Shown here one piece after another: positions 23,402-63,396 of a stretch of DNA of 64,000 nucleotides; position 1 is the first letter of the stretch; every line of letters starts with the position of its first letter. The translations under genes were made by a program, and so were the position numbers. The notes beneath the pieces are model-generated. The model ran no database searches and was not told the origin of the DNA. It saw only the letters and a list, made by a program, of their open reading frames with translations. This stretch comes from an uncultured virus (IMG/VR IMGVR_UViG_3300029258_003649) (taxonomy: Duplodnaviria > Heunggongvirae > Uroviricota > Caudoviricetes), in IMG/VR virus record IMGVR_UViG_3300029258_003649; one strand, given 5' to 3'.

Positions 23402-25399
23402 ATGTTCAGTTTGTCACGGGAGCTGGTCCACAGCGAGGCCAAGGCCGTCGGTGCCGACATGCTCGACCGCCAGCAGGCCCTCATCGTGGGCGGGAACGCC
23501 CAACTCTATCGCTATTCTGTGGAAGACGAGCGTGCCCTGATCGGCATCGGCAAGTACGACTGCGACAACGGTACGGAATACCCGTACCCGTACCGCCCCG
23601 AGAACAGCGTCATCGACCAGCGGAGCGTCCGGCTGTACGCCGACAACGTCTACCTGCAGATCCACCAGGCATACGGCGGATTCACGCCGGACCAGGAACA
23701 TTACGATCGCCTGGTCACCGAGGACGAGTGCCTCATGGAAGACTGCGTTGTCGGCGCCGTCATCGATGTCAAGCTGGACGATCTGCACTTCAGCGCCAAG
23801 GTGCTGGGGCATGCCAAAGACGGAGACTACTACGCCCTGGTTCTTAGCCGAAACCTGCCAGCGCCGATGCGGGCCGCGGATCCTGCGAAGATGCGGTTCC
23901 GCGCCTGTGTCGTACGGCACGACATCGAGATCCCGGTCGAAGCGTTCGACGGCCAGGTCGACAACTGGTGCGCCCGCGCCGACCACGTCGTCGTTGGCGG
24001 CGGCATCTATCTGGCCGACAGCGGTTGGATCGACGACGGTGAGCCGCACCCGCTCCCGATCGTGGAGGCCGACCTCTACATCCAGTACAAGGCCTGGCGT
24101 AGCGAGTTTGCAGACACCGTCTACGCCCTGGCGGATGGCGAGGATCTCGATCTGATCCCCGGACAGGAGTCGCCGGCCAACCCGCTGAAGTTCGGTGTGA
24201 AAATGGCGAAGCTGCACTCTAATATCACTGCTGTCAAATTCATCGCCGTGCCGGACCCGGACGATCCGGCATCCTGGGTTGAGACCCTCCGGCGTGCTGG
24301 AAAGTTCCGGTTCTACAGCGTCGTGCCGATGACCACCGATCCGGCAGTCCAGGAGGCCGTGATACAGCTCGTAGACGACCGTTCCCAGGCCGCCACGGGC
24401 CGGGAGTGTGTCACGTGGCTCCCGCTGCAGGCGCGCGCTACCGTGGCTGTGGCGGACGCCTCGAACAGCGTGGACGGGGCGCCGCTGAAGGCCGTGGTCC
24501 GGGAGCAGCCCGGTGGTGGGGCCTTCCTGGTGGACGTTCAGGAGGGAAATGCGCAATTCCTGTCGCTGGGGGTCCAACCGGGCGATATCCTGCGTTACAA
24601 CGTCGGCGAAAATGGGTATATTGAATATGTCATCCACGCAGTCCTGAACGAGGACGCGGTGGTTGTCCAGGATAGCCAGGGCATCCAACCGTCTGACTTC
24701 GCCCACCCGGTCGAAGTCTGGAGGACATTGGATTCAGACGCAATGGCCGCGCGGGTCGCCGCGAAGGCCAAAGAGTATGGCAGCAAACGCGTCCGTGCCG
24801 TGTGGCCGGACCGTGCCATTGGTGGCGGGGTAGCATTCGACGGAATGTACGTGTGCGCAGCGCTCGCCGGACTCCGGTCCGGCTGCGCGCCGCACCAAAG
24901 TTTGGCCGGCGTAGAGCTAGCCGGCATCGACGAATTGCCAAGGACCGACGAGCTGTTCACGGAGGAGCAGCTCGAGATGTTGACAGACTTTGGAGTGTGG
25001 GTGGTCAGCGCCGACGACGGTGTCGCCCGCTCTCTACGAGGCTTGACGACAGCAGCGTACGGTGATCCATCGCAACACGATGAGGCGGTGGTCACCAACC
25101 TGGATTGTATCTGTGGAGCGCTGCGAGATGAGTTGAGGTCGACCATCGGTAAAGCGCATGGCGCGGGCCAGATCCAGCATCATGTCATCGCCAAGGCGCA
25201 CGGTCAACTCAACGCTATGTGCGTGACGAGATCACCGCGGGTGGGCAGGCAGCTGATCGACAAGACGGTTCGCGTCGTCCGTCGACACGCTTTCCTGAGC
25301 AACCGACTTGTGTTGAGCCTACGTCTCGTGGTACCGGTACCACAGGAACGTGGGATCACCGCTGGTAATGTCGAGGTGTACCAGCAGATTATCGTATAA
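23402..25399 (+). CDS. Contractile tail sheath protein
   Basis: About 665 aa; NPLKFGV and YVCAALAGLRSG..PHQSL motifs with a sheath-like C-terminus; directly before the tube gene. Confidence 0.65.
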   Translation: MFSLSRELVHSEAKAVGADMLDRQQALIVGGNAQLYRYSVEDERALIGIGKYDCDNGTEYPYPYRPENSVIDQRSVRLYADNVYLQIHQAYGGFTPDQEHYDRLVTEDECLMEDCVVGAVIDVKLDDLHFSAKVLGHAKDGDYYALVLSRNLPAPMRAADPAKMRFRACVVRHDIEIPVEAFDGQVDNWCARADHVVVGGGIYLADSGWIDDGEPHPLPIVEADLYIQYKAWRSEFADTVYALADGEDLDLIPGQESPANPLKFGVKMAKLHSNITAVKFIAVPDPDDPASWVETLRRAGKFRFYSVVPMTTDPAVQEAVIQLVDDRSQAATGRECVTWLPLQARATVAVADASNSVDGAPLKAVVREQPGGGAFLVDVQEGNAQFLSLGVQPGDILRYNVGENGYIEYVIHAVLNEDAVVVQDSQGIQPSDFAHPVEVWRTLDSDAMAARVAAKAKEYGSKRVRAVWPDRAIGGGVAFDGMYVCAALAGLRSGCAPHQSLAGVELAGIDELPRTDELFTEEQLEMLTDFGVWVVSADDGVARSLRGLTTAAYGDPSQHDEAVVTNLDCICGALRDELRSTIGKAHGAGQIQHHVIAKAHGQLNAMCVTRSPRVGRQLIDKTVRVVRRHAFLSNRLVLSLRLVVPVPQERGITAGNVEVYQQIIV

Positions 25400-37195: not shown

Positions 37196-38725
37196 ATGGA
37201 ACTCCCGCATCTGAACGATCTCCCGCCGGAGACCGTCGACAAAGCGCGTGAATTCGCCCAACAGTTCCTCCAGGAGCGCTATCCGGACATGGAGCTGGAC
37301 CGGGGCATGCTCGGAGAGCTGGTGACCGGTATGCATGCCGTTATGCATGCTGCGAATCTGGAGATGATCGAGCGGTTCCGCCGATCGCTGAGCCTGGCGC
37401 TGGTCGAAGAGGACCCCTCCCGCACCTACCGGGAGGTCACCGACGGATGGTTGAACAGCTTCGGCATCCAGCGGGACCCGGCCGGCTTCGCTTCTGGCCG
37501 CGTGCTGGTAGTCTTCGACCGCCCAGACCGGCAGATCTTCTCCAAAGACAACCGCTGGATCAGCGGCGGCAACCACTTCGAAGTGGACGTGCACACAGAG
37601 GTCGAACCGGTGCCTGTCGACAACAACCGCTGGATCTACGACATCAACGTCCACGCAATGCACCCAGGCCCGGGCAGCAAGCTGCGCGCCAACACCAAGC
37701 TGGCCCCGCTGCATCCGCCGACCGGCTTCGTCGAGGCGTGGGCGATCGAGGACTTCGAGGGCGGTGAGTCGGCAGCGAGCACTGCTGACCTGGCCCAGCA
37801 GCTGAAAACCCGTGCGGCCCCGCCTGGGTTCGCTAACCGCCAGACAATTACATCGCTAATCCGCGGCATCAACCACGACTGCAGCACGGTAGAGGATGTG
37901 TCCGTGGTCGGCGCCAACGACAAGGAGATGACCAGGGACGGCGGGCACGGCGGGAAGATTGACATCTACGTCAGGTCGGCCAAATACCCTGTGGTGCGGC
38001 ACCTGCTGAAGACAGCGAAGGAGATCGGGCCGGACAACCTCTACGCCATCAACATCGACGCGTCGGACGCCCCGGGCTACTACCGCATCCAGAACTTGCG
38101 GCAGCTCAGCCAAGGCCTGCAGGAGCCCCACATCCCAATCCGCAAAGACATACGCCTCATCGACGAGCACGCAGGCGGGCGGAACGGCACGACCGTTCTG
38201 GCTACCAGGGACGCCGTCTACACGTGCTACCAGCGTGGGCAGATCAAGTTCAAGGACCCCAACCCGCCGGAGGATCTGCAGTACACCTGCCAGGCGCTGA
38301 TGATGCCGTGGCTTGACCAGATCCAGAGACACATCGACCACCCGGATATCCGGCCGCCGGCTGCCGACGTGCTGATCCGCGCGCCGATACCGTGCTTCGT
38401 CACCGTCTACATCAGCCTGTACAAGACGCACGACGTCGTCACGGATCACTTGGAGATCGCTCTCAAGTCTGAGGTCGCCAACCTCGTGAATTCGCAGGGC
38501 ATTAGTGGTAAGCTATTTGTGAACGACATCGTGGCCAAGCTCGGCCCAATGCTGCCACCCAACGTGAAGCTCGAGGACGTCTCCGTGGATGGAGTTGTGA
38601 AGCACTTGGACGGAGACGACGACACCCTCGTTGACGTGTCTGACATCCTGACGGCCACGCGAAACGACAAGACGATCGCCATGTTTTGCGAGCCAGAGTC
38701 AGTCCGAATCGACTACTACCGTTAG
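37196..38725 (+). CDS. Baseplate J-like wedge protein
   Basis: FASGRV, FEGGES, VSVVGANDKEMTRD and GGKIDIYV motifs. Confidence 0.7.
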   Translation: MELPHLNDLPPETVDKAREFAQQFLQERYPDMELDRGMLGELVTGMHAVMHAANLEMIERFRRSLSLALVEEDPSRTYREVTDGWLNSFGIQRDPAGFASGRVLVVFDRPDRQIFSKDNRWISGGNHFEVDVHTEVEPVPVDNNRWIYDINVHAMHPGPGSKLRANTKLAPLHPPTGFVEAWAIEDFEGGESAASTADLAQQLKTRAAPPGFANRQTITSLIRGINHDCSTVEDVSVVGANDKEMTRDGGHGGKIDIYVRSAKYPVVRHLLKTAKEIGPDNLYAINIDASDAPGYYRIQNLRQLSQGLQEPHIPIRKDIRLIDEHAGGRNGTTVLATRDAVYTCYQRGQIKFKDPNPPEDLQYTCQALMMPWLDQIQRHIDHPDIRPPAADVLIRAPIPCFVTVYISLYKTHDVVTDHLEIALKSEVANLVNSQGISGKLFVNDIVAKLGPMLPPNVKLEDVSVDGVVKHLDGDDDTLVDVSDILTATRNDKTIAMFCEPESVRIDYYR

Positions 38726-48271: not shown

Positions 48272-48390
48272 CGGCCTGATCGTACATAGACCTGCGGACT
48301 TTATAGTCGGGGACTATGGACAGGACGTCACCAAAACCTGTTCCACTTGTTCCCGCTATAAAGTTCGTAAGTTTATGTAAGATCTGGCCG
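48272..48390 (+). other. Long imperfect RNA hairpin (about 45-50 bp)
   Basis: Nested pairs cggcc/ggccg, tacatagac/gtttatgta, tgcggactttatag/ctataaagttcgta and cggggac/gttcccg, with G-U pairs. Confidence 0.75.
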
Positions 48391-50011: not shown

Positions 50012-51334
50012 ATGCCCAGAATGCCCGAAACGTCTGATAGTGACTACACGGCTATCACACCAGACCTACGTGAACGGCGGCAAAGGCGCGGGCGCCGAAC
50101 CGCCGAGACCATCGACCAGGAGCGGCTGCGGTCCATTGGTAACGACCGCAGCTGGATTCGCAACGAGGCCTGGCGCGCACCGACTCCAGTAGTCTTCAAC
50201 GCCAACTACTCGTTCGTTCGCGTGCTGTCGCACGTAACGCACACCGCTACATCTATGTCGGACTACGGTGGACGATACGTTTCGGCGAGGAGTAGCGACG
50301 GCAACTACGAGTGGGATGCCACCGTAGGAGACGTCATCCTGGCGTGCTATCATCATCGACGCATGGCCGAGGAGATGCGACTGTATGTTGCGCTGCCGGA
50401 TTCGTTGACATACCACGTCAATACCGGCAAGATCATGCGCGAGACTGGTTGGCATCGCCTGATGCGTCCGATCGCGCGCAGCTGGCTCGCCATGCTACCC
50501 ATCCACCGAATCGTCCGTGCCTGCATTGAAGGGACAACCGAGATTGATGCCGCGGTCGCGCTATCGTCCGACATGTCACGTGACGACACGGCAGCGCTAC
50601 GCAACGCACGTGCACATTTGCAGGAAATCCTCGCAGAAGCACTGCGTGCACCGGAGGACAGCTTCGAACGACTGATTCAGATGCAGTTCGAGGACCTTCG
50701 GCACCGGCTGATGTACATGACGGGTCAGAACCGGGAGTTCATCATGTCGGCGCTCCAGAGTCACTACAATCGCGATTTTCCGTCGCGCTCACGCGCCATG
50801 GATGACATCCGCGATATGCTGCGCAACTGCGAGATCGACGGGGTTGCCGGCAACCTGACGCGTCGTGTACGCCACGACGCCAACGACTGCCGCGCGCTGG
50901 TACTGATGCTCGAGGGCTGCCTCGGGGTCGTCCAGGCGGAGCACCGTCGCCAGGCGTGGGTTGAGGACATCATCACGCGACTCGACGGGTGGCCCCACAC
51001 CACCGGAGGCGTGAACAACCTAGTGGCCGATATGGATCTGTACGACGTGCTCGACGCAGCCAACGGCCTAATACAAAGCGAGGAATTCGTAGCTATCTCG
51101 CGAGACGGCACGCTACAACGCCAAGAAAACCCGGATGTGGATGAAGCACTTGGCGCTGTCAGACGTGTACTCGCCGATCGCTACGGTCTCGACCGCAGCA
51201 GGAGTCAGATCCGTGCTGCATTGCAAGACGTCTTCGACGAACGCGGAGGAGACGCAGAGGAACCGCAAGGTCCTGTTACAAGTGAAAGACGTCCAAGAGG
51301 AGTACGTTTAGACAGGAGAGATGATGGCGACTAA
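50012..51334 (+). CDS. Hypothetical helical protein with a C-terminal RRPRGVRL tag
   Basis: GGAGG at 50002 and ATG at 50012; overlaps the AAA gene start. Confidence 0.65.
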   Translation: MPRMPETSDSDYTAITPDLRERRQRRGRRTAETIDQERLRSIGNDRSWIRNEAWRAPTPVVFNANYSFVRVLSHVTHTATSMSDYGGRYVSARSSDGNYEWDATVGDVILACYHHRRMAEEMRLYVALPDSLTYHVNTGKIMRETGWHRLMRPIARSWLAMLPIHRIVRACIEGTTEIDAAVALSSDMSRDDTAALRNARAHLQEILAEALRAPEDSFERLIQMQFEDLRHRLMYMTGQNREFIMSALQSHYNRDFPSRSRAMDDIRDMLRNCEIDGVAGNLTRRVRHDANDCRALVLMLEGCLGVVQAEHRRQAWVEDIITRLDGWPHTTGGVNNLVADMDLYDVLDAANGLIQSEEFVAISRDGTLQRQENPDVDEALGAVRRVLADRYGLDRSRSQIRAALQDVFDERGGDAEEPQGPVTSERRPRGVRLDRRDDGD

Positions 51335-53027
51335 ATTCGCTCAGTCCTTCATGTCGAAGATCGACTCTGGATCGTCTGTCATTTGGGTGTACTTGTCTGG
51401 CGACGAGGGCCGCGCAGAGCGAGCCCTGAAAGAGATCGCTGCCGAGTATACCAGGCAGACGCCTGTTGATCTGCGATGGTACAGCTGGAACTGTGTGACG
51501 GGAGCCAGCTGGAATACGAAGTGTATCGACCCGTTACAAGCATTGCAGGAGGCTGCTTCCCAGAAGCTGCCAGGGGACGGCCTGATTCTCATGAAGGATC
51601 TTGGCTCGTATCTCAACGGCCAGGGGCAGAAGAACCTGCAACTACGAAGAGCGCTCATGGAGATTTGCATCGACAACGCGCTCAGCAACGACAAGAGAAC
51701 GCGACCTATCGTCACACTGGCCAACACGCCAGTCCCTCACGCCGATATTGCGGAGTACTGCGACGTCATCGACTTCGAGCTCCCGCGATACGACGAGATG
51801 AAGAAAGACGTGTTCGACTTCATCGTTGGCTCCGCCGCACGGAGCAATAAAGGTAAGAAGAAGACAACTGTGGATGCAGAGCTGGAAGAAAAGATCATCC
51901 GCTCGATGCTCGGAACGACCTCCGAAGAAGCACAGCGCATCTTTGCGTACGCGTGTGCTGTGAGTGGGGGCGTCAACGAGCAGTGTCTGGACATCATCGC
52001 CGCCGAAAAGGCGAAGGTGATCCGGAAGGTGGAGGGTCTGCGCTTCATTCCGCACGAGAAGATCCCGAACGCCGATCAGATCGGTGGCTTCAAGACCTTC
52101 TTGTCGTGGCTGCGTAAGCGCGCTCGTGCCTACACCCAGCACGCCCAAACTGTCGGGCTGGAGCTCCCACGGGGCTCGGTCCTGATCGGGCCTGCGGGTA
52201 CGGGCAAGACACTGGTGGCGAAAGCCGCGGCCAAGATGCTTGGGCTGGACCTGGTGCTGATGGACATCGGCAGCATGTTCGACAAGTATGTCGGCGGATC
52301 GGAAGCGAAGATCCGTTCTGCCCTCCAAATGGTCGCAGCCATGCCGAACGCCCTGCTCATGATCGACGAGATCGACAAGGCTTTCGGCGGCGCCCACGAG
52401 AACCAGGCTGCGGACAGCGGCGTGGCGTCTCGGGTGTTGAGCTACTTCCTCAACTGGCTGAGCGAGCGGGACATGGCGTCCGATTCTGACGCCCGTACGT
52501 TCGTCATGGTCACGATGAACCGAACGGCTGGGGTTCCCGATGAACTCCTGCGTGCCGGACGATTCGATCGGGTGTGGTCCACGGACCTGCCGGACCAAGA
52601 CGAGCGGCTCGAGATCCTCAGCATCCACCTGGACCGGCGCAACTGCGACTCGGCCCACTACGGAAAGTCACTGCGTACAGTGGTGACCGGCACCGACCAA
52701 TACACCGGCGCAGAGCTGGAAGAGATCGTGATCAGCGCTCGCAATGACGCCTACGACGACCGTATGTCGAAGTGGGAGGACGCGGGCAAGAAGGGCGACC
52801 CGCCCGACGCTGAAGCGATCCGTCCGACTGCCGAAGAGCTTCTTGCCGCTGCGAGAGAAATCACGCCGGTAGCGAAGATCAACGCAGATGCTGTCGCCGC
52901 TATCAGAAAATTCTGCCAGGAGAACACCTACCCGGTCAACGGGGAACGCGTTCACAATACTGGCCGCAAGTCGCGGAAGGTCTCCACCGAGAGAGCCGCC
53001 ACGGCTGCAGACCCCTCCTCCAACTAG
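51321..53027 (+). CDS. AAA+ ATPase, Ycf46-like (degenerate first domain plus intact second domain)
   Basis: Walker A GPAGTGKT, Walker B MIDEIDK, KYVGGSE pore loop and LLRAGRFD arginine finger; N-terminal DEGRA..LMKDL half. Confidence 0.85.
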   Translation: MMATKFAQSFMSKIDSGSSVIWVYLSGDEGRAERALKEIAAEYTRQTPVDLRWYSWNCVTGASWNTKCIDPLQALQEAASQKLPGDGLILMKDLGSYLNGQGQKNLQLRRALMEICIDNALSNDKRTRPIVTLANTPVPHADIAEYCDVIDFELPRYDEMKKDVFDFIVGSAARSNKGKKKTTVDAELEEKIIRSMLGTTSEEAQRIFAYACAVSGGVNEQCLDIIAAEKAKVIRKVEGLRFIPHEKIPNADQIGGFKTFLSWLRKRARAYTQHAQTVGLELPRGSVLIGPAGTGKTLVAKAAAKMLGLDLVLMDIGSMFDKYVGGSEAKIRSALQMVAAMPNALLMIDEIDKAFGGAHENQAADSGVASRVLSYFLNWLSERDMASDSDARTFVMVTMNRTAGVPDELLRAGRFDRVWSTDLPDQDERLEILSIHLDRRNCDSAHYGKSLRTVVTGTDQYTGAELEEIVISARNDAYDDRMSKWEDAGKKGDPPDAEAIRPTAEELLAAAREITPVAKINADAVAAIRKFCQENTYPVNGERVHNTGRKSRKVSTERAATAADPSSN

Positions 53028-53037
53028 GAGATTTGCA

Positions 53038-53460
53038 TTGAGCCACATGACTCGACGCAAAAGCGCTATCAAGGACGCCGCGGCCTTGAAAAAAGCGTGC
53101 GACAAGATTCCCGGCGCACAATATATGGGCGTCGCCAAGGGCAAAGGCGGTGGCATGCGCAACAAGCACGGCCACCAAGTCCAACTGCCCGGTTGGCGAT
53201 ACCCTGTAACGATCGATCAGACCACTGGGGAATGTTCGTTCGACAACTACAACGGCTCTTGGGGTAAAGAGAAAGAACTCGACAACCTCAAGCAGCAGTA
53301 CGGGGTCGAAGCTGCCAAAGCCAAGGCGGAAGCCGAAGGCGCTACCGAGATGGAAGAACTGAAACTGGACGACGGCTCGATCAAGCTGGTCATCCCCATC
53401 GGGGGCGGTGACTACGCGGTCGAAGGCGACGGCGGCGGAGGTGATGGCTGGGACGTCTAG
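53038..53460 (+). CDS. DUF1257/Ycf35-like protein
   Basis: AGGAG RBS and TTG start; MSH..IKD..ALKKAC, LPGWRYPV, FDNYNGSWG..LKQQY, DDGSIKL. Confidence 0.75.
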   Translation: MSHMTRRKSAIKDAAALKKACDKIPGAQYMGVAKGKGGGMRNKHGHQVQLPGWRYPVTIDQTTGECSFDNYNGSWGKEKELDNLKQQYGVEAAKAKAEAEGATEMEELKLDDGSIKLVIPIGGGDYAVEGDGGGGDGWDV

Positions 53461-53500
53461 TCCTGCCAATTTTATTCACGAGAACAAGATTGGAGAACAA

Positions 53501-53710
53501 ATGCCTATCACCGGACCCCGCATCGAGATTACGGTCTCTCCCAAGGGAGAAGCAACGACCGCAGTTTTCGGCGTCCAAGGCGGCAGCTGCCGCGCCCTGA
53601 CCGAAGGTTACGAGAACCTGTTCGGTGAGGTTGAAGAAACCCTCGACACCGCAGAGGCTTACGAAGATCCCGAGGAAATCGAGATCAAGGGTGAGCAAAA
53701 GGGCGGTTAA
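53501..53710 (+). CDS. DUF2997-like small protein
   Basis: IEITVSPKGE..VFGVQGGSC..LT..E..FG..TAEAY; follows the DUF1257-like gene. Confidence 0.75.
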   Translation: MPITGPRIEITVSPKGEATTAVFGVQGGSCRALTEGYENLFGEVEETLDTAEAYEDPEEIEIKGEQKGG

Positions 53711-53717
53711 CTGAAAT

Positions 53718-53932
53718 AAGTCCCAGGACGAGGATGAACGGGCAGCAGCTCCGGAGGCGACGGCCTCCAACAGGAGTTGGGCGTGCCCTCTGCCTTACAC
53801 CCACGTGACGCGCACGTAGTTGTGTCGGTGTGAGTGTCTGGACGGGAGCCGGGGTGTTGGATACATGCCAAAGTGTGAGCCCATCATAGCCGCACACGGC
53901 CCAGCTTAAAGGGGAAGCCGGCCCTGGGACTT
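53718..53932 (+). ncRNA. Structured RNA element B (multi-branch, related to element A)
   Basis: Closing stem aagtcccagg/cctgggactt; inner ggaggc-GACG-gcctcc and ttacacc/ggtgtga stems. Confidence 0.5.
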
Positions 53933-53953
53933 TTACTATTCAAGGAGGACGAC

Positions 53954-54343
53954 ATGCCAAATGTCGAAATCGTCATTGAGGGAGACGGCACAGTTCGTCA
54001 TCTGGTTGATGCCAACTCTGAGCGCATCGGCCAGGCTATTGCTGGCGAGAAGATTGATACTCGCCGCGCCTCGCACGTGGAGACGTGGTCGAGTCTCACT
54101 GACGACGCTAAGAAGCTGCTTCTGGAGACGCGACTGGTTCGTTTGAAGAATGGCGTGCCCCACGCACGCGTCTTCGGGTCGACCCGGATCGTGGACATCC
54201 AGAACTACTTCTGGGCGGATCTTACGCCATGCAACGGCCCCATCCAGGGACCGTTTGTAAACTACGAGCAGGCCATTGGTTCTGAAATCAAATGGCTTCA
54301 ATCACAAAACCTGCCCATGCCGAAGGAAGACAATGCCGACTGA
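53954..54343 (+). CDS. Hypothetical protein of the AAA cluster
   Basis: AAGGAGG RBS; IVIEGDGTVRHL, RRASHVE, WADLTP.NGP.QGPF..AI..EIKWL. Confidence 0.7.
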   Translation: MPNVEIVIEGDGTVRHLVDANSERIGQAIAGEKIDTRRASHVETWSSLTDDAKKLLLETRLVRLKNGVPHARVFGSTRIVDIQNYFWADLTPCNGPIQGPFVNYEQAIGSEIKWLQSQNLPMPKEDNAD

Positions 54344-55448
54344 CGGCGAAGCCTACGAAGGCGGACAGCTTTTACAACACATCTCGCGACACGTTTTTAT
54401 CGTGATGCTACACGTCTCGTGGCCGCGGTTGAGCTTCAAGATCGACAACGCCAAAGTGTCGGTCCCTGCCAACGGCGGTAGCCAAGACAAGGAGAAGGAG
54501 GTTCAGGAGAAGTACCGGACAGACCCGAAGTTCAAGTTCTGTCCTGAGGACTGGAGCAAACGCCTCGGCAACCTCGAGTACCGCGCCCGAACACGCCTCT
54601 CAAACGCATCCATCAAGTTTGCCACGCGCGGAATGGCTGTGCTACCAGTCACCCGTGCCGCTGACGTGTTCTCTGGATTCCGTACGCTCCGCGAGGAGCT
54701 GATGGGCTATCAGGAGGACTTCGTCAGCGACTACGAGCAGATCTTGGCGGATCTAAAAGATGACCTCGCAGTTGAGGTCTACGACCAAGCCTCCGGCAAG
54801 ATGCCGAGTAAGCAGGAAATCGCAACGAAATTCGGGCTTACTTGGGCGATCGTGCCTGCTGGTGGCGGCAGCAACATCAACGGTGAGCAGATCGATTTGC
54901 TGCGCAGCATCCTCCGAAGGGCGCTGCCAAACGCAAACGACATACTCGCCGTCGATATCGAGGAGGCGTCGCTCATGCTCGACCAGATCGAGTCGCAGCT
55001 GACCTCGTCGGCGATCACCGACGAAGAGGCGGCTGAGCTGATCGGCGAGGCGCGTGAGCAGATGAACAAGTTCACCGAGCAGATGCTCGAGGACATGGCT
55101 CGCGAACCGCGCCAACTGCTGGTCGACGCGACTGATAACCTGATGGAGGCTCTCACAGATCCCAAACGCATAGTACAGAACGGCACCATCGCACAGGTCG
55201 AGCGCGCCTTCGAAATGGTCGAAGGCTTCTCATTCCTGGCCGGCGATGAGCTGCTCGCTGAAATCAAGCGAGTGCGTTCGCGGCTGAACGAGCACGAAGT
55301 CAAACAGCTGAACTCGGATGCCGAGATCGGGGCCAAGCTGGCCGCCGGTTTGCAAGGCGTGCGAGACGAGGCTGCCAATGCGCGGTCCGCTGCGACCGCC
55401 GTACGGCAGTTCCGCGGAATCCGTTTCCGGGAAACCGCTGACACGTAA
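54333..55448 (+). CDS. Helical protein (DUF3150-like, putative) with a C-terminal RQFRGIRF tag
   Basis: LHVSW N-terminal motif and FVSDYEQ helical bundle; found in the AAA cluster. Confidence 0.55.
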   Translation: MPTDGEAYEGGQLLQHISRHVFIVMLHVSWPRLSFKIDNAKVSVPANGGSQDKEKEVQEKYRTDPKFKFCPEDWSKRLGNLEYRARTRLSNASIKFATRGMAVLPVTRAADVFSGFRTLREELMGYQEDFVSDYEQILADLKDDLAVEVYDQASGKMPSKQEIATKFGLTWAIVPAGGGSNINGEQIDLLRSILRRALPNANDILAVDIEEASLMLDQIESQLTSSAITDEEAAELIGEAREQMNKFTEQMLEDMAREPRQLLVDATDNLMEALTDPKRIVQNGTIAQVERAFEMVEGFSFLAGDELLAEIKRVRSRLNEHEVKQLNSDAEIGAKLAAGLQGVRDEAANARSAATAVRQFRGIRFRETADT

Positions 55449-55528
55449 CAAACAGGTGTGCCGCGGGTGGTTTTACTATTGCTTGCCCATTTCCCCACCC
55501 GCGGCCTCCTTTTCCTATAGGAGATACT

Positions 55529-56005
55529 ATGTCCACAGCAAAGAACCTGATTCAGATGCGCACGCAGTTGGCGCACATCTCGCTGCCGGTAAGCCAGAAG
55601 GCAAAAACAGCAGCACTGCGGCTTGGAGCTGCACTCTGGGACGTTGTGCCCACACTGCCGGTCGACATATCGTACGGCGGGACTGGCCAGGTAACGCTCG
55701 AGATCGAGCTTACTGGCGGAACCGTAGGCACGGTGGAGATCGATGCCGAGGGGTACTTCTACGTGGACACCGGAACGCCCGACGAAGGTCTGGCACTCGA
55801 CATCCTGATGTTCCTCGACAGGGAGACAGGCGATGGCGAAAGCCACGAAGAAGAAGGCACCAGTCAAACGGACGGGCAAGAAGAAGCGCCCGGCCCCAAA
55901 GAAGGTGCAGATCAAAAAGAAGGCCAAGGTCAAGATGACCCGGCTCAAGAAGAAGGTAGCCAAGAAGAAGGTCAAGAAGAAAGCAAAGATGCCGACACGC
56001 AGTAG
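55529..56005 (+). CDS. Hypothetical protein with an acidic run-on tail
   Basis: AGGAG RBS; overlaps the next gene by 173 nt. Confidence 0.55.
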   Translation: MSTAKNLIQMRTQLAHISLPVSQKAKTAALRLGAALWDVVPTLPVDISYGGTGQVTLEIELTGGTVGTVEIDAEGYFYVDTGTPDEGLALDILMFLDRETGDGESHEEEGTSQTDGQEEAPGPKEGADQKEGQGQDDPAQEEGSQEEGQEESKDADTQ

Positions 56006-56369
56006 TGCGGTGAAGTACACCTTCAAGAACGGGGTCAAGCACGGCTCCGACGGAAGTACGGCGTACCCATCCAAATGCAAAGAGTCCACATCGTCGAACG
56101 GGCTGACCAAGTACCTGACGATCCTGTGGACCGATGACACACTCTCCTGCGACTGTCGCGGGTGGGCGATCCTCAAGAAGGATTCTGCTGGTAATCCCAA
56201 GCCCCGCACGTGCAAACACTGCAAGGCATCGGAGGCCAGCGACTACGACGACATGACCGCTGTCGATCAGTTCCAGCCGGGCACGGCCAACGCGCCGCGC
56301 AGCACGCAGCTGGATCTCAGTGACGAGCGTCAATGGCGGGGCATTCGTTTCCGCAATACCGAAGACTAG
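55833..56369 (+). CDS. Lys-rich (histone H1-like) N-terminus plus SWIM-type Zn finger, with a C-terminal RQWRGIRF tag
   Basis: GGAG RBS; KKK repeats; LSCDCRGW..TCKH. Confidence 0.7.
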   Translation: MAKATKKKAPVKRTGKKKRPAPKKVQIKKKAKVKMTRLKKKVAKKKVKKKAKMPTRSSAVKYTFKNGVKHGSDGSTAYPSKCKESTSSNGLTKYLTILWTDDTLSCDCRGWAILKKDSAGNPKPRTCKHCKASEASDYDDMTAVDQFQPGTANAPRSTQLDLSDERQWRGIRFRNTED

Positions 56370-56457
56370 CACCAACCCAGTCGATTGAATTTGGACCTGC
56401 TGTCGAAGCCACGTTGGCCAGACGGCGGTCCTTCCGTCAATCGACAGGAGGTGCTTC

Positions 56458-57153
56458 GTGCTTCAGCCCGGTAACTCTAAACTGGGTAACATTCATACAT
56501 TCAGTCTCCCACCGTGCATCACTTGCCCTGGTGAGACAGAAGTGTGTGCTGCAAACTGCTACGGAAAGAAAGGTCACTTCCGCCGCTCCAACGTGAAGAG
56601 CAGCCACGCTGCGAACCACAAGGCGGTGAAGAAGGACAATTTCGTAAGCAAGATGGTGGATGAAATCCAGCGGAAGAACGTCAAGACGCTGCGGATCCAC
56701 GTCACGGGCGACTTCTTTGACGCCCCATACATCCGCAAGTGGATTGCCGTTGCCGAACAGTGCCCGGACGTGACGTTCTACGCGTACACCCGGTCCTGGC
56801 GCATCAAGCGATTGATGCCCGCACTGACCGATTTCAACGCGCTGCCCAACACCAAGTTGTGGTGGTCGGTTGATGAGGACACCCACGAGATCGACGGCAA
56901 GCCGCCGACCCTCAAGGGCGTTCGGTCCGCCTACATGCAGACCTCTGACGACGAAGTTGTCCCTGCCTACTGCGACATGGTGCTGCGTACCAAGCGCGCC
57001 ACGCTCGTACGGTTCACCAGCGGCCGCCTCGTGTGCCCTGGCGAGAACGGGATGACGTACAAAAGAAAAATGACGTGCGAGCGCTGCCGCATTTGTCAGA
57101 CTGACAAGAAGGTGCCCCGCAAGGCTCGCACCCGGAAAAAGGTGAATGCCTAG
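56458..57153 (+). CDS. GP88-like (radical-SAM-related) phage protein
   Basis: GNSKLG..FSLP..TCPG...C...CY, RIHVTGDF and FYAYTRSW; AGGAGG RBS with GTG start. Confidence 0.75.
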   Translation: MLQPGNSKLGNIHTFSLPPCITCPGETEVCAANCYGKKGHFRRSNVKSSHAANHKAVKKDNFVSKMVDEIQRKNVKTLRIHVTGDFFDAPYIRKWIAVAEQCPDVTFYAYTRSWRIKRLMPALTDFNALPNTKLWWSVDEDTHEIDGKPPTLKGVRSAYMQTSDDEVVPAYCDMVLRTKRATLVRFTSGRLVCPGENGMTYKRKMTCERCRICQTDKKVPRKARTRKKVNA

Positions 57154-57937
57154 AAGACCACGCGACCTCCGAAAGGAGCCGCATTGGGAAGAGCATATCG
57201 GTGATTACTTCGGTAACGTCGAAGGATGGGTCGCAGAAAATACCCTCCAACGCTGGGCACAGACCAGCGGCTCCTTCCCGATCCGGCCCTATCTCGGAAG
57301 CATAATCGCTATCTCACCGGAAAAGAAAGAGTACATCAACGGCGCCGCCTTTTGGCGCCACGACATCATCGCCGATGCGTGGCGCGGCCCTTTCAATATG
57401 GGCGGCGCGTTGATGCTACTCACAGCAGATCCGGGAACACTGTCCGGCCGAGTAAAAGATAACAACATAATCGGCCGGTGGTACGGCAATCGTGTGACGA
57501 CCGCCTGGCGGTACACGAAATTGCAACCCCGCAACGGCGAGCACTCCAACGACTGGCTCGACGCCGTGCGTAACAACCACAAGGACATCAGTTGGGATGT
57601 CAAAATGTTCATGAACGTACAGCTTACGGGCTTGACGCCGTACGCCAAGACGCCGAATGACTTCCGCAGGATCATCAACGCGATGTTCCAGCCGCTCATC
57701 ACGGATTACACGTGGATGGACGACGGTCATCTATGGGCGCTGCGGGATGCGTGTGAACAGATGCCGAAAGGCACATGGAAAAAGATGCGTGAATGGCTAC
57801 TACGCCAGAAGCTATCTGACGAGGCGCGACTGGCGCTCGGTGGTCGGCCCGGCCGGCTCGCCGAAAATCAAACGCCAGCGGAGAATCGTAAGTTTCGCAA
57901 GGTCAACATCGAACGAACGGAAGGAACTTCGGAATGA
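57146..57937 (+). CDS. Hypothetical protein with a C-terminal RKFRKVNI tag
   Basis: Coupled to both neighbouring genes. Confidence 0.65.
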   Translation: MPRRPRDLRKEPHWEEHIGDYFGNVEGWVAENTLQRWAQTSGSFPIRPYLGSIIAISPEKKEYINGAAFWRHDIIADAWRGPFNMGGALMLLTADPGTLSGRVKDNNIIGRWYGNRVTTAWRYTKLQPRNGEHSNDWLDAVRNNHKDISWDVKMFMNVQLTGLTPYAKTPNDFRRIINAMFQPLITDYTWMDDGHLWALRDACEQMPKGTWKKMREWLLRQKLSDEARLALGGRPGRLAENQTPAENRKFRKVNIERTEGTSE

Positions 57938-58191: not shown

Positions 58192-59076
58192 ATGCTCGAT
58201 GATGCGATTGCTCACTATGCTGAGCACGTGAAACCGGAGGCCAGTAGGGCTGGTTGGATTCAGCACTGCAAGCAGGCCGTTGATTCGGTGCGCAACCACG
58301 CGGCGATCGACTCGAAGTTGTTCGTCAACTACGTGGTCGAAGTGCCGAGCGGGCGTCAGATCATGGACATCGTGAAGCCGGAAGACGGCGAGAAGCCGAC
58401 CGACATGATGATCTATGATACGGACTCCAAGAGCTTCACCCGCTGCCGCGCCCGCAAGATGCGCAGCCGGTTCATGCTCAAGGTCCACGCCAAGGACATG
58501 ATTTCCAGTCCCCGCGGCGTTGCCGTGGCGCTGGTCGAACGCGGTAGCAACGCGTTGTTCGTCGGCGGTAGTTTCTGCAACTACCTCGACACCTGGAACC
58601 GCCACGTCGGTCTCTGGCTGGCGATCCAGAACATGCAGCCTGTCCCGTGGCAGCTGGCACATCAGATGAAGGCGCTCCCGCTCGACACCGAGCTGGCCCA
58701 CCTGCTGATGAGCAAGCACAGCACGGAGAAGCTGAAGGAGAAGGTCCCGCCTCCGTGGGACTTCGTCATCCAGGAGGGACGCACGTGTGCCCACACGGAG
58801 TTCCACTGGTTCGAAGCGGATAAGAAACCGTTTACGAGGATCATTCAGGGACGGCGAAAGGTGTGCTGTCCCATCTGCGAGAAACCGCTTAGCCGCCCCG
58901 TATTTCCGCCGACCACCAGGACTGCGATCATCACGACGATCCAACTGGCGACTCGGTGCTGGGACAGACGGTTCGGTGACAAGGAGTCCACGACGAATGT
59001 CAGCAACAACCTTTCCGAGAACGGGTCGCCATCAAAAATGGTTGCCGGAACCCCTATTACAGAGCAGCGGGGGTGA
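58192..59076 (+). CDS. Hypothetical protein with a C-terminal C-x-H..CPxC Zn ribbon
   Basis: AAGGAG RBS; TCAH..CCPICE. Confidence 0.65.
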   Translation: MLDDAIAHYAEHVKPEASRAGWIQHCKQAVDSVRNHAAIDSKLFVNYVVEVPSGRQIMDIVKPEDGEKPTDMMIYDTDSKSFTRCRARKMRSRFMLKVHAKDMISSPRGVAVALVERGSNALFVGGSFCNYLDTWNRHVGLWLAIQNMQPVPWQLAHQMKALPLDTELAHLLMSKHSTEKLKEKVPPPWDFVIQEGRTCAHTEFHWFEADKKPFTRIIQGRRKVCCPICEKPLSRPVFPPTTRTAIITTIQLATRCWDRRFGDKESTTNVSNNLSENGSPSKMVAGTPITEQRG

Positions 59077-59254
59077 CGAGTACGACGACGAAGACGAAGA
59101 CTTCGACGACGACTACGACGACTACGACGATGACGACGACTACGACGACGATGATGAAGACGAAGACGACGATTTCGACGACGACTTCGACGACGACTAT
59201 GAAGACGAAGAAGACGACGAATGGAACGACTTCGACGACGATGAGGAGGACTGA
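58997..59254 (+). CDS. Small, extremely acidic protein
   Basis: AAGGAG at 58981 and ATG at 58997; about 58-residue D/E tract with spaced Y/F/W; coupled to 59254. Confidence 0.65.
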   Translation: MSATTFPRTGRHQKWLPEPLLQSSGGDEYDDEDEDFDDDYDDYDDDDDYDDDDEDEDDDFDDDFDDDYEDEEDDEWNDFDDDEED

Positions 59255-60594: not shown

Positions 60595-63396
60595 ATGTTA
60601 AGACGCCGGTCGATCAACGCGCATATCGGATGGCACCAGGTGCTGCCATTGCTAGGAATCAAGGCCGCCTCCACGTCCATCCCGCTGATGGTGCCCTGCC
60701 CGATGTGCAGGAAACCCCGCCTGACTATCTACAATGATAGCAAGTTCGGCGGGAATTGGCACTACTGCCCTGACTGCCATTCCTCTGGAGATATGATAGA
60801 ACTGGCAGCAAAAACGTGGAAGATCAGTTTGGAGGACACAATCCGGCGATTGGTCGCCTCCGGGCTCCCATTCCCGGCGGACGCCGTCACTCAGGAGGCA
60901 ATCCGGCGCTACGAGCAGGGCTACGTGGCCGAACAAACGCACATTCGCCGGCTGCGCGAGGACAGCCGCCGGCTGATGGCCGACGGGGACGTCCAGCTCG
61001 AGCGCGTCCTCCAGCAGATGGGCCTCCCGCAGGACCACCAGCGGGCCTACTGGCGGAAGCGCATGGGGCGCTTCATCGGCGGGGCCGACAAGCTCCGCTG
61101 CATCCAGGGGTTCTACCCGCACGCCGGTCCGCGCAAAGAGAACTCTGTGGGCCGCAACGAGCACGCGAACATGTTCCGCGGCAAGGGCTGGAACGATATG
61201 CTCGTGGTGCCCTTCCACGATCTGCCCGAGCGCTGTGCCGGTGTGCTGTTCATCGGCCGCCACGCCGAGCGAGACAAAGACTACACGTTCCGGCTGGTCG
61301 ACTCCAAGCTGGCGCCGCACGGGGCTGCCGCAGCTGTGGCGGAGATCGGCGTGTGCATGGCGGACGTGCTGAACGGCCCGACGTCCCATGCGCAGCTCTT
61401 CAAAAATCAGGTGTTCGTGATCCCCGATCCGGCCACGGCGCTCAAGCTGCAGGCCCGGCACATGAAGGACGCGGACCTCCCGCTGCCGATCGTGGGCACG
61501 TACAACGCGCTGGTCCGCCGGCAGACCCGTAAATGGGAGCTGCGCACGTACGACTTCTGGCGTACCCGACCGGACAAACGATTCATCTTCTGGGACAAGG
61601 TGCTGTCGGCCAACCTGTTCAACATGGCGGCGCGTGCCGATGGGCTTGTGAGCATCGTCCCTGCTGCGCAATACACGTGGCGGCGGCCGCCGCACATGTG
61701 GCTGCGAGACATGCAGCGCCGGGCGCGACCCTGGGCAGAGGCGCTAGAGGCGCATCTACGCGTAATCCCGGAGGACGCGGCTGCGACGCTGCTGCAAAAC
61801 ATCGACATCCCTCCCGACATGTTGATGCAATTCACGGATGGCTGCTGCGACGAGGTGCAGGAGCTGCTGGAGCGCCACCGAAAGGCGGCCACGCAGTTCC
61901 ACAACACGACAGTCAGGGGCCAGGGCATTGAAGAGATGAGCAATGGCTGGCACGTCGCCAAAACCGGCGAGTGTGTCTGTGACGCCATTCTCAGGGTGGA
62001 GAAGGTCATCTGCATCGAAGACGACGAGGACGCCGACCCCTACTATCAGGGGAGGATCATCTATGGTAATGAGCAGGTGGAATTCGTTGAGCCCATGAGC
62101 AAGATCGAGAGCGACCCAGGGACATGGCTCAAGAAGAAGGTGCTGTCCAAGCTCGGCAAGATGGTCGTCATCAAGCGAGCATGGGCACCGCACATTTTCG
62201 ATATTGCTCGTGGGCTACACACCCCCGAGGTCATCCGTGAAGACGGAAAGTTCGGCTGGAAGCCACGCGACAGCTGCTTCAGCCTCCCTAAGTTCGCCGT
62301 GCACGTCGGAGGTGAGGTGTGCGACGAGCCCGCTCATGTTGTCGACGCATGGGCACCAGGCCAGGATCTGGATGCGCCTACAGCGGTGATTCCCGATCTC
62401 TCTCCGCTGCTGGAGGACAGCCCAGCAAACGCTCTGGTGTGGGCAACCGCCGCCTGTATCGGAGCGAATATCTTGGCGCCTGCAGTAGGGCAGCACGTGA
62501 CCGGTATAGGGCTCATCGGTCATGGTGCTGTGCTCTGCGGGAAAGAGACTGCAAGAACGTGCGGATGTTGTGAGTACAGTAGTGCGTCTGCGACGCCGGC
62601 GGGCATAGACAAATCTTTGGGAGTGATAACTGATGTCACAGCCCGGCATCGCTGGCCGTTAATGGTGAACATGCAAAACCAAGCTCGTCGTGTCCAGGAC
62701 GTCATGGCACACGGCGGCTACGAAGCAAACACCATCCTGTGCACCGATAAATGGCACGCCGACGTCTGGTCACTCGTTGGTTCGTGGCGGTTTATAAACG
62801 GACCCAAGGCCGTAGAGCCGGGGGCGCATGTGAGGCAGTTATTGCCGCGCGTGCTGCCTCTGTGGCTCAGGCGTATCAGCCAGCGCAAGTTCAAACTGGA
62901 ATCACATGCGGACGAATACCTGATCCGCGTGATCGACGACATGGCGTCCATGATGCAAGAGCATGGGCCAGTCAAGGTGATCTACGAGGCTGGCAGCCGT
63001 GTAGATAACGTGGCGGAGCTACCCAAGAAGCCCGCGCAGAAGCTGGTAGCCCTGCTGCATGAGCAAATTTGTGACGGATACATTCGATTCGCACGCCCGG
63101 GCGACACGACCAAAGGGCGAGGCGCGACGATCGTGCGGTGTGCGCCGAAAGACCGTGCGCCAGGCATTTTCATCCCTAGAGTTGCTATCACTGGCATCTG
63201 TGAGAAGCGTGGTGTGATGCCCCCCGATCCGGCCAGGGTAAGCGACGCATTCAAAGCTGCCAATGCACTGGATGGCGAATGCGAGTATGATAATGAAAGG
63301 GGCTGGTTTATATCAGAGTCATGGTGGAACAAGCAGATCGACCGCTGCAACTCTAATCCTCAACACCGGTTAAAGGTAATAGGAGGTGACGAATGA
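60595..63396 (+). CDS. Large replication protein with an N-terminal primase-type (CHC2-like) Zn finger
   Basis: CPMC..LTIY..WHYCPDC..GDMIEL..EDTIRRL; no intact TOPRIM or Walker motif recognised. Confidence 0.55.
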   Translation: MLRRRSINAHIGWHQVLPLLGIKAASTSIPLMVPCPMCRKPRLTIYNDSKFGGNWHYCPDCHSSGDMIELAAKTWKISLEDTIRRLVASGLPFPADAVTQEAIRRYEQGYVAEQTHIRRLREDSRRLMADGDVQLERVLQQMGLPQDHQRAYWRKRMGRFIGGADKLRCIQGFYPHAGPRKENSVGRNEHANMFRGKGWNDMLVVPFHDLPERCAGVLFIGRHAERDKDYTFRLVDSKLAPHGAAAAVAEIGVCMADVLNGPTSHAQLFKNQVFVIPDPATALKLQARHMKDADLPLPIVGTYNALVRRQTRKWELRTYDFWRTRPDKRFIFWDKVLSANLFNMAARADGLVSIVPAAQYTWRRPPHMWLRDMQRRARPWAEALEAHLRVIPEDAAATLLQNIDIPPDMLMQFTDGCCDEVQELLERHRKAATQFHNTTVRGQGIEEMSNGWHVAKTGECVCDAILRVEKVICIEDDEDADPYYQGRIIYGNEQVEFVEPMSKIESDPGTWLKKKVLSKLGKMVVIKRAWAPHIFDIARGLHTPEVIREDGKFGWKPRDSCFSLPKFAVHVGGEVCDEPAHVVDAWAPGQDLDAPTAVIPDLSPLLEDSPANALVWATAACIGANILAPAVGQHVTGIGLIGHGAVLCGKETARTCGCCEYSSASATPAGIDKSLGVITDVTARHRWPLMVNMQNQARRVQDVMAHGGYEANTILCTDKWHADVWSLVGSWRFINGPKAVEPGAHVRQLLPRVLPLWLRRISQRKFKLESHADEYLIRVIDDMASMMQEHGPVKVIYEAGSRVDNVAELPKKPAQKLVALLHEQICDGYIRFARPGDTTKGRGATIVRCAPKDRAPGIFIPRVAITGICEKRGVMPPDPARVSDAFKAANALDGECEYDNERGWFISESWWNKQIDRCNSNPQHRLKVIGGDE

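What the first reader, a model, noticed from the sequence alone, without database searches (positions are those of the whole stretch)
50012..57937. Shared C-terminal peptide tag on five unrelated proteins around the AAA ATPase
Seen in sequence: five non-homologous proteins end with the same motif, 5-12 residues before the stop and after a disordered linker. They are RRPRGVRL (51287-51310), RKSRKVST (52965-52988, the ATPase itself), RQFRGIRF (55404-55427), RQWRGIRF (56328-56351) and RKFRKVNI (57887-57910); the GP88-like protein ends with a weaker RTRKKVNA. The consensus is R-x-x-R-[GK]-[IV]-x-[FLIT]-[RDE]. The two closest copies differ at synonymous codon positions, so selection acts on the peptide. 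I did not see the motif at the ends of the structural proteins. Established: AAA+ machines and their adaptors recognise short terminal tags. Inference: this is a phage-encoded tag-and-sort system, either a substrate/degron signal for the Ycf46-like ATPase module or a docking motif for a common hub protein.
Basis: partly seen in the sequence, partly recalled or inferred. Interest (0 to 1): 0.88.

Follow-up and report, generated by a model that had tools for sequence, protein, structure and literature searches.

The report
Shared address tag, phage AAA+ module
Five unrelated proteins of this large uncultured phage, including its Ycf46-type ATPase, carry the same short arginine-rich peptide, which relatives keep, which also works at a protein's start, and which other phages rewrite in their own version, so it is most likely a docking label for that unstudied ATPase machine, though the binding partner is not yet identified.

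Summary
All five peptides are at the stated coordinates: 5 of 63 window proteins match, against 0.15 in shuffled tails. Out of sample, 15 of 271 and 7 of 121 proteins match in two relatives. Codon identity among copies equals codon usage, so selection is on the peptide. The tag is kept in 40 of 41 ATPase and 25 of 26 DUF3150 homologues. The GP88 copy is not supported (0 of 4 orthologues). Best reading (0.6): a docking motif read inside the Ycf46/DUF1257/DUF2997 module. The ATPase is the only part present in every tagged operon examined. The scan found such tails before on other DNA; nine paper searches found no description.

The parts
50012..51334 (+). Orphan protein (440 aa) directly upstream of the ATPase; tagged
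   Evidence: No Pfam or PHROG hit; orthologues in G005, L009, L010 (E 4e-18 to 3e-11) end ENRLARFIRLR, ENRQTRNIRLG, DNRQKRHIKLG
51281..51313 (+). Tag copy SERRPRGVRLD
   Evidence: 19.7 bits on a profile trained on G005+G006
51321..53027 (+). Ycf46-type AAA+ ATPase, 568 aa: degenerate D1 (about residues 1-235), intact D2, no N-domain, disordered tail
   Evidence: PF00004 E 4e-24; phrog_8638 E 4e-95; AF2 pLDDT 88.5; best folds p97/Cdc48, TMq about 0.58; D2 Walker A GPAGTGKT, pore loop YVG, Walker B IDE, RAGRFD
52965..52994 (+). Tag copy on the ATPase tail, RKSRKVSTER
   Evidence: R.{0,2}[RK].[VI] in 40 of 41 homologues; R548 0.80, R551 0.90, V553 0.71, flanking positions mostly 0.1-0.3
53038..53460 (+). 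DUF1257 (Ycf35-like) protein; likely start TTG 53038 giving M-S-H; untagged; candidate reader
   Evidence: PF06868 E 6.7e-4, 20.3 bits, just under the cut-off 22.2; MSH start shared with relatives; AF2 pLDDT 85; best Z 5.7 to TBP/KA1-like folds, inconclusive
53501..53710 (+). DUF2997 protein, 69 aa, conserved Cys30, acidic tail EEIEIK; untagged; candidate reader
   Evidence: PF11211 E 1e-9; G16, G24, G27, C30 nearly invariant in 43 homologues
53954..54343 (+). 129-aa accessory module protein; untagged; present in only part of the modules
   Evidence: No family; found in 22 of the 67 ATPase loci that hold DUF1257 or DUF2997; Atlas neighbours are unnamed phage and Planctomycetota proteins
54333..55448 (+). 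DUF3150 protein, 371 aa; tagged
   Evidence: PF11348 E 2e-7; R358, F360, R361 invariant in 26 of 26, R366 0.92
55398..55430 (+). Tag copy AVRQFRGIRFR
55833..56369 (+). Lys-rich protein with a CxC...CxH (SWIM-like; motif name recalled) zinc site; tagged; the family switches tag version with its genome
   Evidence: Orthologues end RELRAIMLD (L013) and HGRVITL (G009); 60 of 90 family representatives end in R-x(0-2)-h-x-h, shuffled mean 23, max 37
56322..56354 (+). Tag copy DERQWRGIRFR
56458..57153 (+). GP88-family protein; its RTRKKVNA end is probably not a tag
   Evidence: PF17338 E 1e-39; 0 of 4 orthologues carry the motif
57146..57937 (+). Orphan protein, 263 aa; tagged
   Evidence: Orthologues end RAFRRVQTNR (L009) and RALRRIKTDR (L007); 2 homologues in the large protein search, one being itself
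57881..57913 (+). Tag copy ENRKFRKVNIE
   Evidence: 20.1 bits

Best explanation
The peptide is a short linear docking motif (Arg-led, then hydrophobic-x-hydrophobic, probably binding as a beta strand) read by a site inside the phage's own Ycf46 / DUF1257 / DUF2997 module. SHOWN: the motif is selected as peptide, sits on unrelated proteins across the genome, is position-independent (C-terminal, N-terminal, internal), and changes version per lineage on the ATPase, DUF3150 and cargo together. INFERRED: the ATPase is a hexameric D1-D2 protein translocase whose six tails carry the motif; tagged proteins plug into the same site as clients or adaptors and are remodelled, or deliver bound targets for remodelling; the ATPase's own tails compete for or gate that site. 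Within this reading I put the site on the ATPase itself (degenerate D1 ring) at about 0.35 and on a DUF1257-DUF2997 complex at about 0.25.
For: Enrichment out of sample. Peptide-level selection. Version matrix: G010-type tails 52 of 776 in G010 and 0 in six other records; window-type 0 of 776 in G010; G007/G008-type 5 of 65 and 4 of 58 there, 0 in G001, G005, G006 (these patterns were written after seeing each genome's module tails). ATPase and DUF3150 tails of one locus are more alike than across loci (15.4 against 12.4, p=6e-4, 15 clusters). One cargo family adopts the local version. One Desmonostoc MAG holds two modules with different ATPase tails, RFRNLN and QRMEF, which one host reader explains poorly. 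All 66 ATPases with small module genes nearby have a tail of 20 aa or more; 22 of 58 without them have 15 aa or fewer. Tagged operons without DUF1257/DUF2997 exist (L231, L248, L407, L409), and two such genomes lack both families, which leaves the ATPase as the only constant part. Conserved N-terminal copy.
Against: No binding data. Net charge of the DUF2997 tail does not complement the tag across 19 clusters (rho +0.17, p=0.5). No column of DUF1257, DUF2997 or the ATPase co-varies in charge with the tag (family-wise p 0.90, 0.93, 0.18, 0.59). Tail-less ATPases are mostly one clade, and the tail/module link is p=3e-4 at 55% clusters but p=0.06 at 45%; with the tag pattern instead of tail length p=0.07 and 1.0. 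In 5 of the 15 clusters the best 6-mer was not the tag. A loose generic pattern is only 1.12-1.16 times shuffled around tailed ATPases, against 0.80-0.84 in controls. Versions could equally track different hosts. The ATPase lacks the N-domain that binds such motifs in p97.
Confidence: 0.6

Rival explanations
1. The motif binds a host hub (a protein, the ribosome or nucleic acid); versions differ because hosts differ, and the ATPase and DUF3150 are just two more users.
For: No co-variation signal in module proteins. In G010 the ATPase, DUF1257 and DUF2997 lie far apart, and most of the 52 tagged genes sit elsewhere. The window version is very basic.
Against: Two ATPase tail versions in one genome. 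Syntenic relatives (window clade against L013/L016) use basic and acidic versions. The tail goes with the module in bacteria as well as phages.
Confidence: 0.15
2. It is a degron for a host protease (ClpXP, Lon), like the MuA tail RRKKAI, making early proteins short-lived.
For: Arg/Lys-rich ends resemble MuA RRKKAI (PMC8138137 Table 1, passage). Cargo is mostly small and unannotated: 2 of 52 G010 proteins have any Pfam hit at E<0.001.
Against: 5-12 residues follow the motif here. N-terminal and internal copies exist. Acidic versions (IDL, LDL, MEF) do not resemble it. Conserved interior positions with free flanks fit a binding groove.
Confidence: 0.12
3. It is a virion-loading or assembly-site address, like the T4 capsid targeting sequence.
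For: T4 internal proteins are diverse and share only a targeting sequence (PMC3012670, passage). In G005 two tagged genes carry pieces of the phage's own capsid and probable scaffold N-termini.
Against: The same kind of tail ends chromosomal Ycf46 of cyanobacteria and of Firmicutes/Actinobacteria elements. Corndog gp96, whose tail is KVRVLDL, was detected in infected cells and not in particle preparations (PMC4351075, passages; only 3 spectra). No strict hit on window structural genes.
Confidence: 0.08
4. Chance resemblance among Arg-rich tails of a 60% GC genome, or a DNA repeat.
For: The pattern was fitted post hoc, and off-frame matches up to 20 bits occur in six-frame scans.
Against: Out-of-sample enrichment of about 18- to 25-fold over composition-matched shuffles; no excess codon identity; no DNA repeat at the tags among the families shown.
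Confidence: 0.02

Closest known systems
p97/Cdc48 with cofactor linear motifs (VIM, VBM, SHP) and its C-terminal PUB/PUL-binding tail (PMC5389986, passages)
   Same: D1-D2 AAA+ architecture; Arg-rich short motifs on unrelated proteins competing for one site; a motif on the ATPase's own unstructured tail.
   Different: No N-domain; D1 has no Walker A; the motif does not match the helical VIM/VBM consensus; cargo and ATPase carry the same motif; the motif has lineage-private versions; no ubiquitin system in the locus.
Ycf46 (Synpcc7942_0417, slr0374, plastid ycf46) with Ycf35/DUF1257
   Same: Same ATPase type and gene neighbourhood; cyanobacterial ATPases end QRMEF next to DUF1257. ycf35 and ycf46 show a similar marine/freshwater retention pattern in red algal plastids (PMC5940233, passages). 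The operon is induced under severe stress, depends on (p)ppGpp, and Ycf46 is reported to interact with KaiC (PMC13683863, passages).
   Different: None of the passages read mentions a tail motif, clients or a mechanism; the phage module adds DUF3150, a 129-aa protein and genome-wide tagged proteins.
ClpX signals: MuA C-terminal RRKKAI degron and SspB XB tail (PMC8138137, passages)
   Same: Short basic/hydrophobic terminal peptides that bring proteins to an AAA+ unfoldase; the XB tail is an adaptor docking peptide.
   Different: Those are read by host ClpX and are invariant per host; this motif need not be terminal, sits on the ATPase itself and is rewritten between phages.
T4 capsid targeting sequence of internal proteins (PMC3012670, passages)
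   Same: One short peptide on many diverse small phage proteins.
   Different: The CTS is N-terminal and cleaved (recalled) and serves encapsidation; this motif is mostly C-terminal and also occurs in cellular operons.

Membership tests
Ycf46-type AAA+ module | About 500-570 aa ATPase with degenerate N-terminal AAA and intact C-terminal AAA | tested here: met
   homologues are named 'SpoVK/Ycf46/Vps4 family' by JGI
Ycf46-type AAA+ module | Adjacent DUF2997 gene | tested here: met
   PF11211 38.5 bits, cut-off 24.1
Ycf46-type AAA+ module | Adjacent DUF1257 (Ycf35) gene | tested here: inconclusive
   PF06868 20.3 bits, cut-off 22.2, E 6.7e-4; grouped with cyanobacterial MSHF proteins by my iterated profile
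p97/Cdc48/VAT | N-terminal cofactor-binding N-domain | tested here: not met
   The model begins with the D1 helix at residue 4
p97/Cdc48/VAT | Two nucleotide-binding AAA domains; TIGR01243 score | tested here: not met
   D1 has SGDEGR and LMKDL in place of Walker A and B; 92 bits against cut-off 803
p97/Cdc48/VAT | Tandem D1-D2 fold with aromatic pore loop and Arg finger in D2 | tested here: met
   Foldseek E 7e-21, TMq 0.58, 16% identity; YVG and RAGRFD
p97 cofactor motifs VIM/VBM/SHP | Consensus Rx2h3AAx2Rh, EhRRRRLxhh or h-x-F/W-GxGx2L | tested here: not met
   Consensus from PMC5389986 compared by eye with the tags
ClpX C-terminal degron (MuA type) | Motif at the extreme C-terminus (requirement recalled; sequence RRKKAI) | tested here: not met
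   5-12 trailing residues; N-terminal and internal copies
ClpX C-terminal degron (MuA type) | Confers ClpXP-dependent degradation when transplanted | not testable with these tools
   needs a reporter assay
T4 capsid targeting sequence | Tagged proteins are packaged in the virion | not testable with these tools
   uncultured phage; Corndog gp96 seen only in infected cells
Docking motif of the Ycf46 module (proposed) | Physical binding of the tag to a module protein | not tested

The most novel reading that the evidence does not exclude
Large phages and mobile elements encode a ubiquitin-free, p97-like segregase with a private address code: a library of small, fast-evolving adaptors (about 10 in this phage, about 15 in a complete relative, 52 in a 548-kb phage), each made of a target-binding or decoy part plus the tag, brings host or phage targets to the Ycf46 ring. 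The decoy parts include pieces of the phage's own capsid and scaffold proteins, which could trap capsid-sensing defences. The code is rewritten between lineages, which would insulate co-infecting elements, and a Cys/His site shared by DUF1257 and DUF2997 could bind metal or process the tag.
Probability: 0.25. Interest if true: 0.92.

Novelty: new variant of a known kind. Interest (0 to 1): 0.75.

Why it matters
It gives a concrete, testable handle on an orphan machine that runs from phages, including cultured ones (mycobacteriophage Corndog, Rhizobium phage L338C), to cyanobacteria and plastids (ycf46/ycf35). A peptide of about ten residues predicts which unannotated phage proteins belong to one pathway: up to 7% of the genes of a huge phage. 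If the versions are mutually exclusive, they would also be a natural set of orthogonal tag-and-reader pairs for targeted protein remodelling in bacteria.

Tried and rejected
My idea that the DUF2997 tail is the charge complement of the tag looked good by eye (EEIEIK against IRFR; His-rich tails against IDL) but failed across 19 clusters (rho +0.17, p=0.5); a weak anticorrelation with ATPase body charge (rho -0.46, p=0.049, one of four tests) did not repeat. Column-wise charge co-variation was negative for DUF1257, DUF2997 and the ATPase (labels partly hand-set; five loci dropped because no full ATPase was picked up). The DUF1257 fold search gave no Foldseek match at E<0.001 and best Z 5.7. DUF1257 and DUF2997 profiles are unrelated (probability 1%). 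DUF3150 has no solved relative; the Atlas returns only DUF3150 and unnamed clusters. The metagenome scan with the ATPase alignment returned mostly other AAA proteins, used only as controls. Promoter and terminator counts equal the shuffles. The GP88 copy was rejected. In one search four rows were other AAA proteins (L040, L100, L102, L142) and L374 was scored without module although one search found it; they were left in the counts. Papers: nine searches listed no paper on the tag or on the four-gene module; the jumbo-phage survey PMC7824862 has 0 occurrences of DUF1257, DUF2997, DUF3150, CDC48, Ycf46 or SWIM in its main text; PMC8297831 does not mention Ycf46. Supplements were not read, and the library lacks most subscription journals.
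Full report
Setting. The window is part of a large tailed phage: major head protein at 3990-4916, sheath at 23402-25399, baseplate wedge at 37196-38725. No assembly of its own is held. Records G001 (162 kb) and G002 (134 kb) carry the same module genes at 100% protein identity and extend beyond the window. G005 (226 kb, complete) and G006 are relatives with about 72% ATPase identity. The host is unknown; structural neighbours of the 129-aa protein are from Planctomycetota, which is only a lead.

Observation. A strict pattern hits 5 of 63 window tails against 0.15 in shuffles. Because it was fitted to them, I tested it elsewhere: 15 of 271 in G005 and 7 of 121 in G006, with shuffles at 0.62 and 0.39. 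Ten of the G005 hits have no C-terminally tagged orthologue in G001. A profile trained on G005 alone finds 9 sites of 11 bits or more among 44,402 positions of G001, 7 of them in tails, which make up 9% of positions; in G009, which uses another version, it finds 1 site and none in a tail. The bodies of the tagged proteins are unrelated. Copies share codons no more than codon usage predicts, so this is a peptide signal with many origins and not a DNA repeat.

Orthologues. The motif is kept in 40 of 41 aligned ATPases and 25 of 26 DUF3150 proteins while flanking residues vary. It is kept in the orthologues of 50012, 55833 and 57146, but in 0 of 4 GP88 orthologues, so I drop the GP88 copy. The same phage has further tagged genes outside the window: G001 59430, 71522 and 13093 near the C-terminus, and 12390 internally, 114 residues before the stop. 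One orthologous pair carries the tag at the very start: MSNRNPRGIRLDR in G002 (position 129794) and MAEDRAPRGIRLRD in G005. A free C-terminus is therefore not needed.

Versions. Other phages with the module use the same design with different letters: R-x-I-D-L in L013/L016, GR-x-I-D-I in G009, KRKV-x-I in L027/L056, R-x-L-D-L in the Corndog-like clade, RFEILDL in huge phage G010. In G010, 52 of 776 genes, in 42 families once the tag is removed, end that way; none does in six other records, and none of the 776 matches the window pattern. ATPase and DUF3150 tails from one locus resemble each other more than tails from other clusters (p=6e-4, 15 clusters; in 5 clusters the best match was not the tag). 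The zinc-finger cargo at 55833 ends RQWRGIRFR here, RELRAIMLD in L013 and HGRVITL in G009, each time the local version. Among 90 representatives of that family, 60 end in the generic design against 23 in shuffles. A change of host would give the same picture, but one Desmonostoc MAG holds two modules with different ATPase tails.

The machine. The AlphaFold model shows a degenerate D1, an intact D2 and a disordered tail that holds the tag. The best structural matches are p97/Cdc48, Rix7 and Drg1, but there is no N-domain, which is where p97 binds VIM, VBM and SHP motifs (PMC5389986, passages). No peptidase gene was recognised in the module. By analogy with that clade (established knowledge) I infer a hexameric protein translocase; this is not shown.

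Who reads the tag. For the small proteins: all 66 ATPases with DUF1257, DUF2997 or the Corndog-type small protein within the flanks have a tail, while 22 of 58 without them have none. The tail-less ones are mostly one clade, so this is close to a single event. For the ATPase: four bacterial operons have tag-like ends on the ATPase and its neighbours (KTRKVLV, RRIKIQ, RGRRILL, RRRIITD) without DUF1257 or DUF2997, and the two of those genomes searched lack both families, though their completeness is not given.

What the cargo looks like. Nearly all cargo is small and unannotated. In G005 one tagged 113-aa protein contains 44 residues that are 64% identical to the start of the phage's own major capsid protein (E 7e-13), and a tagged membrane protein contains 24 residues like the start of the protein two genes before the capsid gene, probably the scaffold (E 5e-5). 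I found no such chimera among the tagged genes of G001, G002 or G006. This part-plus-tag build is the basis of the adaptor or decoy reading, and it rests on two genes.

Known and new. The principle, a short motif docking unrelated proteins on an AAA+ machine, is known from p97 cofactors and the SspB tail (PMC5389986 and PMC8138137, passages). The system fails membership of those families on tested features. Ycf46 is known as a stress-induced, KaiC-interacting ATPase without a mechanism (PMC13683863, passages). Corndog gp96 is expressed in infected cells (PMC4351075, passages). Nine paper searches found no description of the tag; supplements and subscription journals were not seen. The labels SWIM, clamp-binding and XB-like are recalled and come from no call.

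Verdict. A real, selected and widespread address motif tied to an uncharacterised AAA+ module. Docking inside the module 0.6, host hub 0.15, host-protease degron 0.12, virion address 0.08, chance 0.02. Interest 0.75.

Noticed in passing
window 53038-53046 and 53588-53590 (DUF1257 M-S-H start; DUF2997 Cys30): DUF1257 starting MSH goes with DUF2997 Cys (25 of 49 loci; 17 had no motif called); the three loci whose DUF1257 starts MPC (L014, L024, L036) have His, Ala, His at that column. This suggests a Cys/His site at a DUF1257-DUF2997 interface; it may be one evolutionary event.
   Followed up: partly
Corndog-like loci, e.g. L170 12495-12836, L233 9799-10143: About 40 loci replace DUF1257/DUF2997 by one 105-120 aa protein (phrog_11784) with MPCD, DAC and a C-terminal HSHDGGxTWxH; it does not score on my DUF1257 or DUF2997 profiles.
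   Followed up: partly
G005 116848-117189 and 162840-163436 (L177, L180): Tagged chimeras: a piece of the capsid N-terminus plus tag; a transmembrane helix plus a piece of the probable scaffold N-terminus plus tag.
   Followed up: partly
window 56307-56321: QLDLS just before the tag in the zinc-finger protein, QLDFS or QLDLS in close orthologues; resembles a sliding-clamp-binding motif (recalled). Absent from distant members.
   Followed up: partly
window 60595-63396: The 933-aa protein with an N-terminal zinc ribbon ends HRLKVIGGDE, like a ClpX XB-type tail (recalled).
   Followed up: no
window 59042-59254: A 70-aa almost pure Asp/Glu ORF, also present in L008, L009 and L030 but not called in L013, L016, L020; possible nucleic-acid mimic or sink for basic peptides.
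   Followed up: partly
window 55833-55990: The zinc-finger protein has a 54-residue histone-like Lys-rich N-terminal extension that is missing in G005 and L007 orthologues.
   Followed up: no
L010 10028-12565: The ATPase gene is interrupted after the pore loop by an insertion holding a 182-aa Cys-rich ORF; several database homologues stop at the same place. Possibly an intron.
   Followed up: no
G010 377636-378450: Two tandem DUF1257 copies in the phage with the most tags, about 39 kb from the ATPase and 83 kb from DUF2997.
   Followed up: no
window 48272-48390: Inverted repeat with 35-nt arms, 83% complementary, between genes upstream of the module.
   Followed up: no
L369 4924-8330: A tail-less ATPase follows a 628-aa protein ending RSVRFLEL, a tag-like end without an ATPase tail or small module genes.
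   Followed up: partly
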